From Patescibacteria group bacterium (lineage in GTDB: Bacteria; Patescibacteriota; Patescibacteriia; UBA2591; UBA6264): a DNA stretch of 9,451 nucleotides. A program made the position numbers and the translations under genes. Shown one piece after another: positions 1-5,942 of this stretch. The stretch covers positions 1 to 9,451 of the forward strand of contig JAQTOB010000014.1 in NCBI GenBank assembly GCA_028713575.1, in the 5' to 3' direction. The notes below the pieces were generated by a model. The model was not told the origin of the DNA, searched no databases, and was given only the letters and a program-made list of their open reading frames with translations. The stretch's first letter is position 1. Each line of letters begins with the position of its first letter.

Positions 1-19
1 CTCGAAAGACGTACTAGGT

Positions 20-96
20 TGGCTCCGGAGGGCGGACTCGAACCGCCGACACGCTGGTTAACAGCCAGCTGCTCTGACCAACTGAGCTACTCCGGA
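20..96 (-). tRNA. tRNA-Asn (anticodon GTT), 77 nt, CCA encoded
   Basis: The reverse complement folds as a full cloverleaf: TCCGGAG-TA-GCTC-AGTTGGTCA-GAGC-A-GCTGG-CTGTTAA-CCAGC-GTGTC-GGCGG-TTCGAGT-CCGCC-CTCCGGA-G-CCA. The anticodon loop is CTGTTAA, giving GTT. Confidence 0.9.
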
Positions 97-105
97 ATAT
101 TGTTA

Positions 106-351
106 CTATTTTATATTGTTAATATCTAACCACTTTCTTCCTTGACCTGTTTTTAAAAACTTTTCTCTCTTCATTGCCTCCTTTTTGGTTTCAAATAACT
201 CTTTATAGATTAAAATTAATGGCTTATTTTGTTTGGTCCATTTATTACATCCTTTGTTGTGCTCTTTTAATCTTATCTCTGGATCTTTAGATGTATAACC
301 AACGTATCTTTTGGAATTTTTTAAACTTTTTAAAATGTATGTAAAATGCAT
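106..351 (-). CDS. Minimal GIY-YIG (URI-domain, COG2827/UPF0213-like) nuclease, 81 aa
   Basis: ATG at 351 and TAG at 108-106. Motifs are FTYIL...YVGYT (GIY/YIG), RLKEH, and EAMKREKFLKTGQGRKWL (conserved Glu/Lys C-terminal helix). It is a paralog of ORF 5455..5718. The stop codon lies 9 nt from the tRNA-Asn 5' end. Confidence 0.8.
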   Translation of the reverse strand: MHFTYILKSLKNSKRYVGYTSKDPEIRLKEHNKGCNKWTKQNKPLILIYKELFETKKEAMKREKFLKTGQGRKWLDINNIK

Positions 352-366
352 ATTAATTATATATTG

Positions 367-396
367 CCAGCCAGAGGCTGGTCCGCCTTCGGCGGA
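367..396. repeat. Two abutting GC-rich hairpins (ccagcc-aga-ggctgg at 367-381; tccgcc-ttc-ggcgga at 382-396)
   Basis: Each has a perfect 6-bp GC-rich stem and a 3-nt loop, with no spacer between them. They lie directly between the tRNA-Asn 5' fragment and the GIY-YIG ORF. No U-tract follows on the minus strand, so they do not look like terminators. Confidence 0.75.
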
Positions 397-412
397 AGCT
401 ACTCCGGAATAT
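397..412 (-). repeat. 16-nt direct repeat of 85..100, made of 4 nt of leader (ATAT) plus nt 1-12 of tRNA-Asn (TCCGGAGTAGCT)
   Basis: agctactccggaatat occurs identically at 85-100 and 397-412. The flanking bases differ on both sides (84 g vs 396 a; 101 t vs 413 g). Confidence 0.9.
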
Positions 413-429
413 GAATTTTAATAAATTTT

Positions 430-457
430 ATTATACCGCTTTTATTTTTTTTGACAA
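430..457 (-). promoter_or_regulatory. Sigma70-type promoter candidate (TTGTCA-16 nt-TATAAT) upstream of the tRNA-Asn fragment/GIY-YIG/tRNA-Asn unit
   Basis: On the minus strand the -35 TTGTCA is at 457-452, the spacer is 16 nt, and the perfect -10 TATAAT is at 435-430. The predicted start is about 15-20 nt upstream of tRNA fragment position 1 (408). AT-rich DNA gives chance matches. Confidence 0.45.
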
Positions 458-462
458 TGATG

Positions 463-486
463 AAAACGGGTCATTTGACCCGTTTT
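463..486 (-). terminator. Rho-independent terminator candidate (bidirectional hairpin) ending the dnaG-rpoD-small ORF unit
   Basis: aaaacgggtc-attt-gacccgtttt has a 6-bp GC core (467-472/477-482) extended by A/T pairs. A T-run follows the stem on either strand. Confidence 0.6.
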
Positions 487-501
487 AAACTTTTTTAATT
501 C

Positions 502-669
502 TTAATTCCCGAATATCACGCTTATAAAAGAAACGGGAATTATAAAAATTACGTGAACAATGATAATTAAACATACTGTCATTGTTCCTGCTATTAACGC
601 CCCTACGGCGATAATAGTTAAAATTAAAAAAGGAAATAAATAAGTAAAAAAATTAATAATTTTTTCCAT
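502..669 (-). CDS. Small hydrophobic protein, 55 aa, two predicted TM segments (not in the supplied ORF track)
   Basis: Hand translation gives MEKIINFFTYLFPFLILTIIAVGALIAGTMTVCLIIIVHVIFIIPVSFISVIFGN, then TAA at 504-502. ATG at 669 is preceded by AAAGGAGGGAGAAAA, a strong SD. It lies 23 nt downstream of the rpoD stop and is followed by the 463-486 terminator. Confidence 0.5.
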   Translation of the reverse strand: MEKIINFFTYLFPFLILTIIAVGALIAGTMTVCLIIIVHVIFIIPVSFISVIFGN

Positions 670-5360: not shown

Positions 5361-5450
5361 TGGCGGAGAGGGCGGGATTCGAACCCGCGATACCGTTTCC
5401 GGTATACGTGCTTTCCAGGCACGCCCTTTCGGCCGCTCAGGCACCTCTCC
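5361..5450 (-). tRNA. tRNA-Ser (anticodon GGA), 90 nt, long variable arm, CCA encoded
   Basis: The reverse complement is GGAGAGG-TG-CCTGAGCGGCCGAAAGG-G-CGTGC-CTGGAAA-GCACG-TATACCGGAAACGGTATC-GCGGG-TTCGAAT-CCCGC-CCTCTCC-G-CCA. It has the class II variable arm expected for Ser. Confidence 0.9.
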
Positions 5451-5735
5451 AAAATTACTTTTTGCCAATTTTTTCAAAAAGAACTGATAATTGTTGTTTT
5501 AAAAATCTTTTACCGTCGCTGGTTTTTAAAAACTTTTCACGGCGCAAAGCATCCTGCTTTAAAAAATATGCCTCATAGTGTATTAACTTCAATGGCCTTC
5601 GTTTAATTGTAGACCTAACTTTTCCTTCGCAATGTTCTCTCAGCCGCCTTTTTAAATTTTTTGTGAAGCCTGTGTAGATTTGATTGTTGTTCAGTAATAA
5701 AATATAAATATAATACATTTTATTATGTAAATTAT
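5451..5735 (-). mobile_element. Putative tRNA-Ser-associated GIY-YIG cassette between the truncated and intact tRNA-Ser copies
   Basis: The ORF plus short AT-rich flanks (17 nt upstream, 4 nt downstream) is the only sequence separating tRNA-Ser nt 1-76 (upstream copy) from the intact gene. Mobility is inferred. Confidence 0.4.
5455..5718 (-). CDS. Minimal GIY-YIG (URI-domain, COG2827/UPF0213-like) nuclease, 87 aa
   Basis: ATG at 5718 and TAA at 5457-5455. Motifs are YYIYIL...YTGFT, RLREH and [18 protein letters not shown]. Hand alignment gives roughly 35-40 percent identity to ORF 106..351. The stop codon lies only 4 nt (TTTT) from tRNA-Ser position 1. Confidence 0.8.
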
Positions 5736-5740
5736 GGATT

Positions 5741-5827
5741 CGCCCCGAGATGAACTCGGGGCGCTACGGGTTAATCCCGTGTTAGCGCCCCGAGATGAAC
5801 TCGGGGCGCTACGGGTTAATCCCGTAG
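5741..5827. repeat. Tandem 45/42-nt repeat, each unit carrying two hairpins (cgccccgag-atgaa-ctcggggcg and ctacggg-ttaat-cccgtag), inserted in the T-loop of the truncated tRNA-Ser
   Basis: Unit 1 is 5741-5785 and unit 2 is 5786-5827. They differ only by 3 extra nt (cccgtGTTag vs cccgtag). The stems are 9 bp and 7 bp and perfect. GC is about 64 percent against an AT-rich background. Confidence 0.9.
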
Positions 5828-5882
5828 CGAACCCGCGATACCGTTTCCGGTATACGTGCTTTCCAGGCACGCCCTTTCGGCC

Positions 5883-5922
5883 CCTGCCTGCCGGCAGGCA
5901 GGCCTGCCTGCCGGCAGGCAGG
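5883..5922. repeat. Two tandem copies of the 20-nt perfect palindrome cctgcctgccggcaggcagg, inserted in the D-loop of the truncated tRNA-Ser
   Basis: 5883-5902 and 5903-5922 are identical. Each is its own reverse complement and 80 percent GC. The insertion lies exactly between tRNA nt 16 and 17 by comparison with the intact gene. Confidence 0.92.
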
Positions 5923-5942
5923 GCTCAGGCACCTCTCCACAC

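What the first reader, a model, noticed from the sequence alone, without database searches (positions are those of the whole stretch)
20..457. The same cassette layout recurs at tRNA-Asn(GTT): promoter, 12-nt tRNA 5' fragment, twin GC hairpins, GIY-YIG ORF, intact tRNA
On the minus strand, a TTGTCA-16-TATAAT promoter candidate (457-430) comes first. ATAT plus tRNA-Asn nt 1-12 follows (412-397). Two abutting perfect hairpins come next (396-367). CAATATATAATTAAT then leads to the 81-aa GIY-YIG ORF (351-106). TAACAATAT follows, and then the intact tRNA-Asn (96-20). The 16-nt string agctactccggaatat is an exact direct repeat bracketing hairpins plus ORF, like a long target duplication. CAATAT also occurs both right after the hairpins (366-361) and right before the intact tRNA (102-97). 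The homology breaks in the D-stem (nt 12/13), close to the D-loop position (nt 16/17) of the first hairpin insertion at the tRNA-Ser locus. Finding the same unusual arrangement twice, at different tRNAs within 5.4 kb, argues against coincidence.
Basis: partly seen in the sequence, partly recalled or inferred. Interest (0 to 1): 0.75.

Follow-up and report, generated by a model that had tools for sequence, protein, structure and literature searches.

The report
Mobile nuclease cassette invading tRNA genes
A 312-bp selfish DNA cassette, made of a tiny GIY-YIG nuclease gene and a 30-nt double hairpin, sits inside the start of a tRNA-Asn gene and rebuilds that gene; a nearly identical genome lacks it at exactly this spot, and relatives of it sit beside tRNA genes across many uncultivated bacterial phyla.

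Summary
The predicted empty site also exists. Two contigs 99.7% identical to the window (L081, L082) read ...AAAATTCATATTCCGGAGTAGCTCAGTTGG..., with one copy of the 16-nt repeat, an intact tRNA-Asn, no hairpins and no ORF.

- **Filled alleles.** A third near-identical contig is filled. A lineage whose rpoD is only 80% identical carries the same cassette (ORF 96% identical) at the same site.
- **Relatives.** Of the 80 closest relatives of the 81-aa GIY-YIG protein in species genomes, 69 lie directly upstream of a same-strand tRNA. Of 59 with an ARAGORN-called tRNA, 51 have a copy of that tRNA's 5' part upstream. That copy is typically split by a precise 30-nt twin hairpin (TCCGCC-ArA-GGCGGA / yCmGCC-TyT-GGCkGr).
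- **Interpretation.** I read this as a promoterless, homing-type selfish cassette. It inserts into tRNA genes, restores them by duplication and borrows the tRNA promoter.
- **Closest known.** T4 SegB, and Ssn nucleases with their hairpin repeats.
- **Literature.** I found no description of this tRNA-linked architecture.
- **Not shown.** Nuclease activity, its target and the role of the hairpins are inferred.

The parts
463..486 (-). Intrinsic-terminator-like hairpin ending the upstream 55-aa ORF (502-669). It marks the start of the native tRNA-Asn intergenic region.
   Evidence: 10-bp stem plus T run. Conserved in the empty alleles L081 and L082.
430..457 (-). Sigma-70-type promoter TTGTCA-16-TATAAT. 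In the empty allele it lies directly in front of tRNA-Asn. In the window it lies in front of the fragment, hairpins, ORF and tRNA.
   Evidence: 11/12 match. The same hexamers are present in L081 and L082, where the tRNA follows directly. Its function as a promoter is inferred.
422..471 (.). Cluster of 6 SNPs between the filled (window) and empty (L081) alleles, immediately upstream of the junction. It looks like a co-conversion or recombination tract.
   Evidence: There are 16 differences in 4970 nt, and 6 of them fall at 422-471 (Poisson P about 2e-7). The filled contig L083 has no difference from the window in 363-726.
397..412 (-). Direct-repeat copy 1: ATAT plus tRNA-Asn nt 1-12. This is the displaced resident 5' end of the tRNA gene.
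   Evidence: D13. It co-varies with the resident tRNA in L084.
367..396 (-). 30-nt twin hairpin: TCCGCC-GAA-GGCGGA followed by CCAGCC-TCT-GGCTGG. It forms the left edge of the 312-bp insert.
   Evidence: It belongs to a family of 96 twin hairpins in related loci, with 99.9% of stem positions paired and compensatory changes.
363..366 (-). CAAT, a relic of tRNA-Asn nt 13-16 of the CAATGG type (as in L084, L020 and L025). It does not match the window's own tRNA (CAGTTGG), so it travels with the cassette.
106..351 (-). 81-aa single-domain GIY-YIG nuclease ORF with no evident Shine-Dalgarno sequence and no promoter of its own.
   Evidence: Pfam PF01541, E=9.4e-18. Y5, Y16, R27, H31 and E63 are invariant in 31 relatives. 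AF2 model pLDDT 96.4. Nearest folds are UPF0213, Slx1 and the I-TevI catalytic domain.
85..100 (-). Direct-repeat copy 2: ATAT plus nt 1-12 of the functional tRNA-Asn.
20..96 (-). Intact tRNA-Asn(GTT).
   Evidence: ARAGORN. Rfam RF00005, 69 bits. 100% identical to the tRNA of the empty allele.
85..396 (-). The 312-bp segment absent from L081 and L082: hairpins, leader, ORF, TAACA and one repeat copy. It can equally be placed at 101-412.
   Evidence: blastn junctions. Alignment A2.
5736..5938 (-). Sister cassette, upstream part. This is a copy of tRNA-Ser nt 1 to the T-arm, interrupted by two 20-nt perfect palindromes (5922-5883) and by two tandem 45-nt two-hairpin repeat units (87 nt in all, 5827-5741).
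   Evidence: D3, D8, I7, I13. L084 has the empty arrangement, with the promoter directly before tRNA-Ser.
5455..5718 (-). Sister cassette: 87-aa GIY-YIG ORF, 43% identical to the Asn one.
5361..5450 (-). Sister cassette: intact tRNA-Ser(GGA).

Best explanation
The segment 396-85 is a small selfish mobile cassette lodged in the 5' part of the tRNA-Asn gene.

**Composition.** A two-fold-symmetric 30-nt twin hairpin, a short leader, a promoterless 81-aa GIY-YIG nuclease gene, and a second copy of ATAT plus tRNA nt 1-12 that regenerates an intact tRNA downstream.

**Consequence of insertion.** The resident 5' end (412-397) is left behind the native promoter. That promoter should now transcribe fragment, hairpins, ORF and tRNA as one RNA, from which RNase P would release the tRNA. 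This step is inferred.

**Spread.** The cassette moves between genomes by recombination into empty tRNA-Asn alleles. The most likely route is a homing-type process in which the nuclease breaks or nicks the tRNA gene DNA and repair copies the filled allele. This is inferred by analogy with free-standing GIY-YIG homing endonucleases such as T4 SegB, whose best site lies inside a tRNA-Asn gene.

**Hairpins.** The twin hairpins are a discrete module that inserts precisely after a T in redundant tRNA copies. They are probably the cognate DNA structure of the nuclease, by analogy with Ssn nucleases and their hairpin repeats.

**Life cycle.** The cassette then decays and is lost, giving a patchy gain-and-loss distribution.
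For: **Shown.**
1. Presence/absence at strain level. L081 (JGI, 113-kb contig) and L082 (Logan) are 99.7% identical to window 5366-397 and continue directly into window 100-20. They carry one repeat copy and an intact tRNA. L083, at 99.4% identity, is filled.
2. Flank co-segregation. Six of the 16 window-L081 differences lie within 75 nt of the junction. L083 shares the window's alleles there although it differs more elsewhere (P about 2e-7). This is what a recombinational import with co-conversion would leave.
3. Horizontal transfer. L084 has the same cassette at the same site, with the ORF 95.9% nt identical. Its rpoD is 80% and its dnaG 73% identical to the window's. Its repeat matches its own tRNA. 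The CAAT after the hairpin fits L084's tRNA, not the window's.
4. Family behaviour. Of the 80 closest loci, 53 have an intact same-strand tRNA within 60 nt after the ORF. Twelve have a tRNA-Asn split in the anticodon loop; Rfam reports a group I intron in 10 of the 12. Four have a tRNA 61-200 nt downstream. Of 59, 51 have an exact copy of 10 nt or more of the tRNA 5' part upstream.
5. Decay series and tandem arrays.
   - Truncated ORFs: L060, L095.
   - Solo fragment plus hairpin: L042, L052.
   - Tandem cassettes: L011, L017.
6. A second filled/empty pair, with tRNA 3'-end repeats. L093 and L094 are 99.93% identical, and L093 has an 855-bp insert with two GIY-YIG ORFs.
7. The locus is patchy within the clade: empty in L085/L086 and L091/L092, filled in L084, degenerate in L095/L096.
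8. The protein has a confident GIY-YIG fold and conserved catalytic residues.

**Precedent.** SegB (PMC2330249). Ssn nucleases with hairpin repeats (PMC11893778).
Against: - No nuclease activity, target site or cleavage polarity is known for this protein.
- At 81 aa it has no DNA-binding domain, whereas classical homing GIY-YIG enzymes need one for a long target.
- The intact tRNA copy in the filled allele keeps the same sequence from -4 to +76. A nuclease that recognised only tRNA sequence would also cut its own host allele.
- The flank SNP tract shows recombination but not that the nuclease caused it. Ordinary transformation and homologous recombination could move the cassette.
- Seven of the 10 nucleotide differences between the window and L084 ORFs change the amino acid. 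These particular copies may be drifting rather than active.
- A precise deletion between the 16-nt repeats could produce the empty allele just as insertion could produce the filled one.
- No circular or tandem junction was found in metagenome contigs.
Confidence: 0.7

Rival explanations
1. Single-strand 'peel-and-paste'-like transposition. The GIY-YIG protein would be an Ssn-type site-specific ssDNA nuclease that recognises the twin hairpin, which presents one purine-loop hairpin on each strand. It would excise and re-insert hairpin-bounded DNA 3' of a T in tRNA gene DNA. The 30-nt twin hairpin would be the non-autonomous element, and hairpin plus ORF plus tRNA 5' end the autonomous one. This is analogous to IS200/IS605 and REP/RAYT.
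For: - Twin hairpins are exact 30-nt insertions with no target duplication. They follow a T in 45 of 51 cases and sit at several tRNA positions: nt 8, 12/13, 16/17, 21, 28/29, 35 and the T-loop.
- Their orientation is conserved: the purine fraction is 0.88 in loop 1 and 0.17 in loop 2.
- G-U pairs are almost absent (2 of 780 stem cells), which points to selection on DNA of both strands.
- Three in-frame copies lie inside coding genes.
- The left edge of the 312-bp insert is the hairpin, and its right edge ends in the same ...GTAGCT as the target.
- Ssn enzymes bind hairpin repeats flanking their own genes and cut ssDNA upstream of them.
Against: - No GIY-YIG enzyme is known to rejoin DNA.
- The window cassette has a hairpin at one end only.
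- The SNP tract in the flank is not expected from transposition.
- The published Ssn repeat motif has no match in 369 kb of these loci.
- Some cassettes lack hairpins altogether: L060, L073 and L093.
Confidence: 0.2
2. A host-serving operon rather than a parasite. The small GIY-YIG protein would have a cellular role tied to tRNA genes or transcripts, such as repair, processing or defence, and would be kept next to a tRNA for co-expression. The hairpins would be RNA stability or processing elements. The empty allele would be a simple deletion between the repeats.
For: - The association with tRNA genes spans several phyla, and the catalytic residues are invariant, indicating long-term purifying selection on the protein.
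- The last hairpin usually lies 12-21 nt before the ATG, which would suit a 5'-UTR element.
- Precise deletion between 16-nt repeats is mechanistically easy.
Against: - The cassette is 96% identical between hosts whose neighbouring genes are 73-80% identical.
- The distribution is patchy even among strains.
- There are several paralogues at different tRNAs in one 9.4-kb window.
- Truncated ORFs and solo remnants exist.
- The two-fold symmetry of the twin hairpin and the lack of G-U pairs argue against an RNA-only role.
- Hairpins also occur in 3' tRNA remnants downstream of the functional tRNA and inside coding genes.
Confidence: 0.07
3. Chance resemblance or assembly artefact. The repeat and hairpins would be coincidental, or the empty and filled alleles would be mis-assemblies.
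For: The window and several related contigs end at or inside cassettes, showing that assemblers struggle here.
Against: - Four independent assemblies from JGI, Logan and NCBI (two) give consistent filled or empty structures.
- A 16-nt repeat is shorter than the k-mer sizes typically used by assemblers (general knowledge, not checked for these assemblies), so it is unlikely to cause a collapse.
- The architecture recurs in 51 of 59 unrelated genomes.
- The simulated expectation for such a repeat is 0.01 per window.
Confidence: 0.01

Closest known systems
Free-standing GIY-YIG homing endonuclease genes, especially phage T4 SegB (PMC2330249)
   Same: - A GIY-YIG nuclease gene lying among or next to tRNA genes.
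[quoted passage not shown]
- Inherited together with flanking markers.
- SegB's preferred site lies inside a tRNA-Asn gene, and it recognises a conserved tRNA motif, which allows it to jump between tRNA genes.
- Here there is filled/empty polymorphism, a flank SNP tract, and relatives at Asn, Val, Pro, Met, Phe, Ile, Ala, Arg, Gln, Ser and Lys tRNAs.
   Different: - From my own knowledge, SegB is about 220 aa. The paper notes a NUMOD3 DNA-binding motif. The protein here is a bare 81-aa catalytic domain.
- SegB is phage-borne. This family is almost absent from 2.9 million viral contigs.
- SegB loci have no duplicated tRNA fragment and no hairpin module.
Ssn single-domain GIY-YIG ssDNA nucleases with NTS/SRM hairpin repeats (Chenal et al. 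2025, PMC11893778)
   Same: - A single-domain GIY-YIG protein of about 90 aa.
- GC-rich hairpin repeats with purine-rich loops, of fixed orientation, placed next to the nuclease gene.
- The authors note the IS-like NTS-ssnA-NTS layout and the REP/RAYT analogy.
   Different: - The paper never mentions tRNA genes.
- The published SRM motif has no match in these loci.
- The repeats here are abutting twin hairpins of exactly 30 nt. They are not spread genome-wide but confined almost entirely to tRNA gene remnants beside the nuclease gene.
- Family assignment (cd10448) could not be checked.
REP/RAYT and IS200/IS605 (hairpin-recognising single-strand transposases)
   Same: - Small palindromic GC-rich elements associated with one nuclease gene.
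- Insertion 3' of a short target without target duplication.
- Strand-specific hairpin recognition is plausible.
   Different: - Those enzymes are HUH/Y1 transposases that form covalent intermediates.
- A GIY-YIG enzyme has no known strand-transfer chemistry.
- REPs are spread through intergenic DNA, not confined to tRNA remnants.
- These points rest on my own knowledge and on the discussion in PMC11893778.
Mitochondrial GC-rich hairpin elements (double-hairpin elements, sponge RHEs, yeast GC clusters) and mobile endonuclease ORFs that carry a partial copy of the invaded gene
   Same: - GC-rich hairpins invading AT-rich genomes (PMC2800124 and PMC4478555, found).
- From my own knowledge: the Allomyces atp6 mobile ORF, which replaces part of the gene and leaves the displaced fragment beside it. 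This is the same logic as the duplicated tRNA part here.
   Different: - Those are organellar systems with different hairpin sequences.
- No consistent pairing of one nuclease family with one hairpin family and one class of target gene has been described.
Integrase-driven genomic islands at tRNA genes
   Same: - They insert into a tRNA gene and restore it by carrying a copy of the displaced part.
- The result is a direct repeat of tRNA sequence at both ends.
   Different: - Those use tyrosine or serine recombinases, duplicate the 3' part and are kilobases long.
- The window cassette is 312 bp, has no recombinase and duplicates the 5' part. A 3'-repeat variant does exist in L093.

Membership tests
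GIY-YIG nuclease superfamily (Pfam PF01541) | Significant match to the GIY-YIG domain profile. | tested here: met
   E=9.4e-18, 64.7 bits against a cut-off of 22.6. The Ser-locus ORF gives E=8.4e-17.
GIY-YIG nuclease superfamily (Pfam PF01541) | Conserved catalytic set: the two Tyr of GIY and YIG, Arg, His and the metal-binding Glu. | tested here: met
   Y5, Y16, R27, H31 and E63 are invariant in 31 relatives. Their correspondence to I-TevI Y6, Y17, R27, H31 and E75 is from my own knowledge.
GIY-YIG nuclease superfamily (Pfam PF01541) | The GIY-YIG alpha/beta fold. | tested here: met
   AF2 pLDDT 96.4. Foldseek hits are UPF0213 BH0048, Slx1 (TMq 0.70, rmsd 2.3 A) and the I-TevI catalytic domain. 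Profile hits to 1zg2 and 1ywl have E about 3e-12.
Ssn family (cd10448, Chenal et al. 2025) | Single-domain GIY-YIG protein of about 90-100 aa. | tested here: met
   81 aa, with the domain covering residues 1-68 and no second domain.
Ssn family (cd10448, Chenal et al. 2025) | Assignment to CDD cd10448, or significant similarity to N. meningitidis SsnA. | not testable with these tools
   No CDD library and no SsnA sequence were available. NCBIfam gave no family. A plasmid tblastn found only a Listeria UPF0213 gene.
Ssn family (cd10448, Chenal et al. 2025) | Gene flanked by repeats matching the published SRM motif HGTCWYN(0-2)YYVSBRHN(0-5)WNVSBRGN(0-2)RNCYNB. | tested here: not met
   No match on either strand in the window plus 80 loci, 369 kb in all. 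A different hairpin family is present instead.
Ssn family (cd10448, Chenal et al. 2025) | Cleaves ssDNA only, next to its hairpin repeat. | not testable with these tools
   This requires biochemistry.
Free-standing homing endonuclease gene | Presence/absence polymorphism at the same site in close relatives. | tested here: met
   Window and L083 are filled; L081 and L082 are empty, at 99.4-99.7% identity. L093 and L094 form a second pair.
Free-standing homing endonuclease gene | Co-conversion of flanking markers with the gene. | tested here: inconclusive
   The SNP cluster at 422-471 co-segregates with the cassette. This rests on one pair plus one further filled contig, and the right flank (the tRNA) is invariant.
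Free-standing homing endonuclease gene | Horizontal spread: the element is more similar between hosts than the flanking genes are. | tested here: met
   ORF 95.9% identical, against rpoD at 80% and dnaG at 73%, for window versus L084.
Free-standing homing endonuclease gene | The encoded enzyme cleaves the empty allele, and the filled allele is immune. | not testable with these tools
   No biochemistry is available. The intact tRNA copy keeps the sequence from -4 onwards, so any immunity would have to depend on the leader or on structure.
Free-standing homing endonuclease gene | A separate DNA-binding module that recognises a long target, as in I-TevI or SegB. | tested here: not met
   The 81-aa protein is a catalytic domain only.
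Insertion sequence / classical transposon | Terminal inverted repeats at both ends and a fixed-length target duplication. | tested here: not met
   The hairpin is at one end only in the window. The direct repeat varies from 12 to more than 70 nt between loci and starts at tRNA nt -9 to +1.

The most novel reading that the evidence does not exclude
The 30-nt twin hairpin and the 81-aa GIY-YIG protein could form a two-part transposable system of a new chemical class. A minimal GIY-YIG ssDNA nuclease would mobilise a miniature two-fold-symmetric hairpin element, and itself when bracketed by it, into tRNA-gene DNA.

Only insertions into redundant tRNA copies would survive. The element would secure its place by supplying the replacement tRNA part and by taking over the tRNA promoter.

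This would be the first GIY-YIG-driven DNA transposon. It would also be a natural function for Ssn-like nucleases.
Probability: 0.2. Interest if true: 0.9.

Novelty: new variant of a known kind. Interest (0 to 1): 0.8.

Why it matters
**A widespread but apparently undescribed class.** These tiny selfish elements reshape tRNA loci in Patescibacteria, Omnitrophota, WOR-3, Ignavibacteria, Bacteroidota and Elusimicrobiota. One peptide pattern found 413 confirmed copies among 185,579 species genomes.

**A test of a design rule.** It gives a testable case of a homing-type or transposon-type element built from a bare 81-aa nuclease domain. That challenges the rule that GIY-YIG homing enzymes need a DNA-binding domain.

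**A link to Ssn nucleases.** The link is only that these are also single-domain GIY-YIG genes with hairpin repeats beside them. If the hairpins prove to be their target, they could be new ssDNA-cutting specificities.

**Practical consequences.**
- Cassettes break assemblies.
- They leave pseudo-tRNA pieces.
- They make gene callers extend ORFs through the hairpins, producing PPKADQP-type N-termini.
- The 30-nt hairpin can sit in frame inside protein genes.

Tried and rejected
- **SRM motif.** The published Ssn repeat motif had no match in 369 kb. The hairpins are not NTS/SRM as defined.
- **Obtaining a true SsnA sequence.** NCBIfam gave no family. A plasmid tblastn gave one Listeria UPF0213 hit. 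The paper's supplements are not held. Ssn membership is therefore left untested.
- **Fixed-length target duplication.** Rejected, because repeat lengths vary widely.
- **CAATAT as a second bracketing repeat.** Rejected, because it is not conserved in L084.
- **Phage vector.** Only 2 relatives were found in the viral contig collection.
- **Circular or tandem junction** (GTAACAATATTCCGGAGTAGCTTCCGCC). Not found in metagenome contigs.
- **Further copies of this exact cassette** (GGCTGGCAATATATAATTAATATG). Only the L084 contig was found.
- **Rfam.** Nothing was reported for the hairpins or the leader in the window. Only the two tRNAs were found.
- **Literature.** Eight full-text searches, combining GIY-YIG with tRNA-gene, hairpin, CPR-lineage or Ssn terms, found no description of this architecture.
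- **The same strain elsewhere.** The 21 kb of L081 hold no other GIY-YIG relative or twin hairpin.
Full report
**1. The observation**

- A terminator hairpin lies at 486-463, followed by the promoter-like TTGTCA-16-TATAAT at 457-430, an 11/12 match.
- ATAT plus tRNA-Asn nt 1-12 lies at 412-397.
- Two abutting perfect hairpins lie at 396-382 and 381-367.
- The 81-aa ORF runs 351-106 and matches Pfam GIY-YIG at E=9.4e-18.
- The intact tRNA-Asn(GTT) lies at 96-20.

The 16-nt repeat (412-397 and 100-85) is exact. Simulated windows give about 0.01 such repeats.

The tRNA-Ser locus 5.4 kb away has the same plan.
- A copy of tRNA-Ser from nt 1 to the T-arm (5938-5736) is interrupted by GC-rich palindromes at 5922-5883 and 5827-5741.
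- An 87-aa GIY-YIG ORF follows at 5718-5455, 43% identical to the Asn one.
- The intact tRNA-Ser lies at 5450-5361.

The window is a whole 9451-bp contig of a Patescibacteria MAG, since P0001 is 100% identical.

**2. The empty site exists**

I searched for relatives of the neighbouring RpoD and fetched their contigs.

*Empty alleles.* Two contigs from different sources are 99.7% identical to window 5366-397 and then continue straight into window 100-20. These are L081 (JGI, 113 kb) and L082 (Logan). The two alignments overlap by exactly the 16-nt repeat. In alignment A2 they read ...TATAATAAAATTTGTTAAAATTCATATTCCGGAGTAGCTCAGTTGG.... The difference is one 312-bp block: hairpins, leader, ORF, TAACA and one repeat copy.

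*Filled allele.* L083 (NCBI, 99.4%) carries the fragment and hairpins, and its contig ends inside the cassette.

*The flank.* Of the 16 differences between the window and L081 over 4970 nt, six lie at 422-471, within 75 nt of the junction (Poisson P about 2e-7). L083 differs from the window at 27 other positions but at none in 363-726. The flank therefore segregates with the cassette, as expected if the cassette arrived by recombination together with adjacent donor DNA.

**3. Horizontal movement**

L084 has an RpoD 90% identical to the window's, with rpoD 80% and dnaG 73% identical at the nucleotide level.
- It carries the same cassette at the same place.
- Window 412-19 aligns to it at 92%, and the ORF at 95.9%.
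- Its two repeat copies read ATATTCCGGGGTAGCT and match its own tRNA, where the window has A at that position. The repeat is therefore target sequence.
- The CAAT that follows the hairpin in both genomes equals nt 13-16 of L084's tRNA (CAATGG) but not the window's (CAGTTGG). The hairpin, the relic and the ORF therefore travel as a unit.
- L084's tRNA-Ser locus is empty, with the promoter directly before the tRNA.

Elsewhere in the same RpoD clade the locus varies.
- L085/L086 and L091/L092 are empty.
- L095/L096 hold a degenerate remnant: nt 1-13, a single hairpin, nt 18-29, then about 20 codons of a GIY-YIG ORF.
- L089/L090 have a group I intron with an HNH ORF in the tRNA.
- L093 has two other GIY-YIG ORFs inserted after the tRNA, each followed by a copy of the tRNA's last 16 nt. 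L094 has an identical RpoD, is 99.93% identical over 1498 nt, and lacks this 855-bp insert.

Taken together, the locus shows repeated gain, decay and loss.

**4. The family**

One peptide pattern found 413 confirmed relatives among species-representative genomes. I examined the 80 closest, which come from Patescibacteria, Omnitrophota, WOR-3, Ignavibacteria, Bacteroidota and Elusimicrobiota.

| Arrangement after the ORF | Loci |
|---|---|
| Intact same-strand tRNA starting within 60 nt | 53 |
| tRNA-Asn split in the anticodon loop (Rfam group I intron in 10 of the 12) | 12 |
| tRNA 61-200 nt downstream, with an extra fragment between | 4 |
| Contig ends within 120 nt | 6 |
| Variant layouts | 5 |

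- The tRNAs are mostly Asn, but also Val, Pro, Met, Phe, Ile, Ala, Arg, Gln, Ser and Lys.
- In 51 of 59 cases an exact copy of 10 nt or more of the tRNA's 5' part lies within about 200 nt upstream of the ORF.
- The copy starts at about nt -9 to +1 and extends to the D-loop, the anticodon loop or the T-arm.
- In 13 of 19 tRNA-Asn cases the copy ends exactly after G(G/A)CTGT. This is the position where the group I introns sit in related tRNA-Asn genes.
- The family is nearly absent from 2.9 million viral contigs.

**5. The twin hairpin**

I found 96 twin hairpins in these loci. Most are exactly 30 nt (78 of the 96 have the 6+3+6 x 2 geometry), with consensus TCCGCC-ArA-GGCGGA-yCmGCC-TyT-GGCkGr.
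- The first loop is purine-rich (fraction 0.88) and the second pyrimidine-rich (0.17). Each DNA strand therefore presents one purine-loop hairpin followed by one pyrimidine-loop hairpin, which gives two-fold symmetry.
- Stems are paired in 99.9% of cells, with compensatory changes.
- The outermost pair was not required by my hairpin finder. It is U-A or C-G in 65/65 cases for the first hairpin and 62/65 for the second, with only two G-U pairs. This points to selection on DNA rather than on RNA alone.
- The hairpins are precise insertions. The flanks are contiguous tRNA sequence (6/6 in 26 of 51 cases) and there is no target duplication.
- The base before the insert is T in 45 of 51 cases. Positions are nt 8, 12/13, 16/17, 21, 28/29, 35 and the T-loop.
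- Hairpins occur almost only in tRNA remnants beside these ORFs: 71 of 89 lie within 300 nt upstream of an ORF, and most of the rest lie just downstream.
- The downstream ones sit in 3' tRNA remnants that follow the functional tRNA (L001, L015, L027, L034, L037, L039, L040, L057, L075). In some loci the cassette therefore brought a whole tRNA.
- Three copies lie in frame inside protein genes, including a variable linker of DnaG.
- The Ser cassette of the window uses other palindrome families. One of them (CCTGCCTGCCGGyAGGCAGG) recurs in L044 and L062.

**6. The protein**

- Y5, Y16, R27, H31 and E63 are invariant in 31 relatives.
- The AlphaFold model is confident, with pLDDT 96.4.
- The nearest solved relatives are the UPF0213 proteins BH0048 and EF2693 (E about 3e-12), Slx1 (TMq 0.70) and the I-TevI catalytic domain.
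- There is no second domain.

**7. How it most likely works**

*Shown.*
- A 312-bp block is present or absent at one exact site in nearly identical genomes.
- Its flank co-segregates with it.
- It is shared by distant hosts at higher identity than their core genes.
- Its relatives are tied to tRNA genes and leave duplicated tRNA parts.

*Inferred.*
- The nuclease starts the event by cutting tRNA-gene DNA, and repair copies the filled allele. This is the homing model, and T4 SegB is a precedent.
- The ORF has no promoter of its own and is transcribed from the tRNA promoter at 457-430. RNase P then frees the tRNA.
- The hairpins are the nuclease's cognate DNA structure, as in the Ssn/NTS pairs.

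The main rival is a single-strand transposition-like process driven by hairpin recognition. It explains the precise, T-linked 30-nt insertions better, but it does not explain the flank tract. A host-serving operon and an artefact are both unlikely.

**8. Comparison and novelty**

The closest known systems are free-standing GIY-YIG homing endonuclease genes (SegB) and the Ssn nuclease/hairpin pairs described in 2025. Neither shows the combination found here: a bare catalytic domain, a duplicated tRNA part, and a 30-nt twin hairpin.
- The Ssn paper does not mention tRNA, and its repeat motif is not met here.
- A paper on CPR rRNA insertions notes GIY-YIG ORFs in non-intron insertions but says nothing about tRNA.
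- Eight full-text searches found no description of this architecture.

I rate it a new variant of a known kind, with high interest.

Noticed in passing
window 5361-5938; L084 1-600: The tRNA-Ser cassette uses palindrome families different from the twin hairpin: two 20-nt perfect palindromes, and two copies of a 45-nt two-hairpin unit. Its tRNA copy runs as far as the T-arm. L084 has the empty Ser arrangement but a filled Asn site.
   Followed up: partly
L002, L004, L014, L030, L035, L042, L043, L052, L054, L055, L056, L066 (about 30-350 nt after the GIY-YIG ORF); L089 3930-4302: tRNA-Asn genes here are split after CTGT in the anticodon. Rfam reports a group I intron (RF00028, 64-101 bits) in 10 of the 12 loci. 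In L089 the intron appears to carry a 123-aa HNH-type ORF (my reading of its translation; not scanned against Pfam). In 13 of 19 Asn cassettes the upstream tRNA copy ends at this same position.
   Followed up: partly
L093 3915-4769 versus L094 1498: This is a second filled/empty pair with identical RpoD. An 855-bp insert after tRNA-Asn holds two other GIY-YIG ORFs (95 and 88 aa). Each is followed by a copy of the tRNA's 3'-terminal CCGCCCTCCGGAGCCA, and no twin hairpins are present. It is a 3'-repeat version of the same theme. L072, L073 and L087 look similar.
   Followed up: partly
L001 748-777 (dnaG linker); L060 524-553; L076 379-410: Twin hairpins of about 30 nt lie inside protein-coding genes; for the dnaG copy the frame was checked (offset 0) and it adds the decapeptide PARGGSAFGG. 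The other two genes were read by eye (L076 looks like the start of an alanyl-tRNA synthetase gene). This resembles Rickettsia palindromic elements.
   Followed up: partly
L081 1-6510 and 11547 onwards, versus window 5366 and window 1-19: In the empty-allele strain, homology to the window starts at the CCGCCA 3' end of tRNA-Ser. Upstream lies a restriction-modification island (HpaII, Vsr, methylases) with no tRNA-Ser. Downstream of tRNA-Asn, L081 also diverges exactly at the tRNA 3' end. The window's own 3' flank (ACCTAGTACGTCTTTCGAG) matches L093 and L094, so it is the native one.
   Followed up: partly
P0037 and P0041 (N-termini); L083 end; window end: Gene callers extended some homologues upstream through the hairpins, producing false N-termini such as FPPKADQPRAE. 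Several contigs, including the window and L083, end at or inside cassettes, so these elements break assemblies.
   Followed up: partly
L092 1-2437; L093 1-2496: DnaG in these relatives is about 1000 aa and has LAGLIDADG_3 hits inside it. This suggests an intein in the primase gene.
   Followed up: no
window 502-669: A 55-aa hydrophobic ORF lies between rpoD and the tRNA-Asn promoter. It is conserved in L081-L084 and has a counterpart in L095, but is absent from L085. It has no Pfam match.
   Followed up: no
L060 2735-3012: This is a tandem arrangement without a hairpin. tRNA-Ala nt 1-35 is followed directly by a truncated 39-aa GIY-YIG ORF and then an intact tRNA-Ala of different sequence. It appears to be an old decayed cassette inserted in the anticodon loop.
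   Followed up: no
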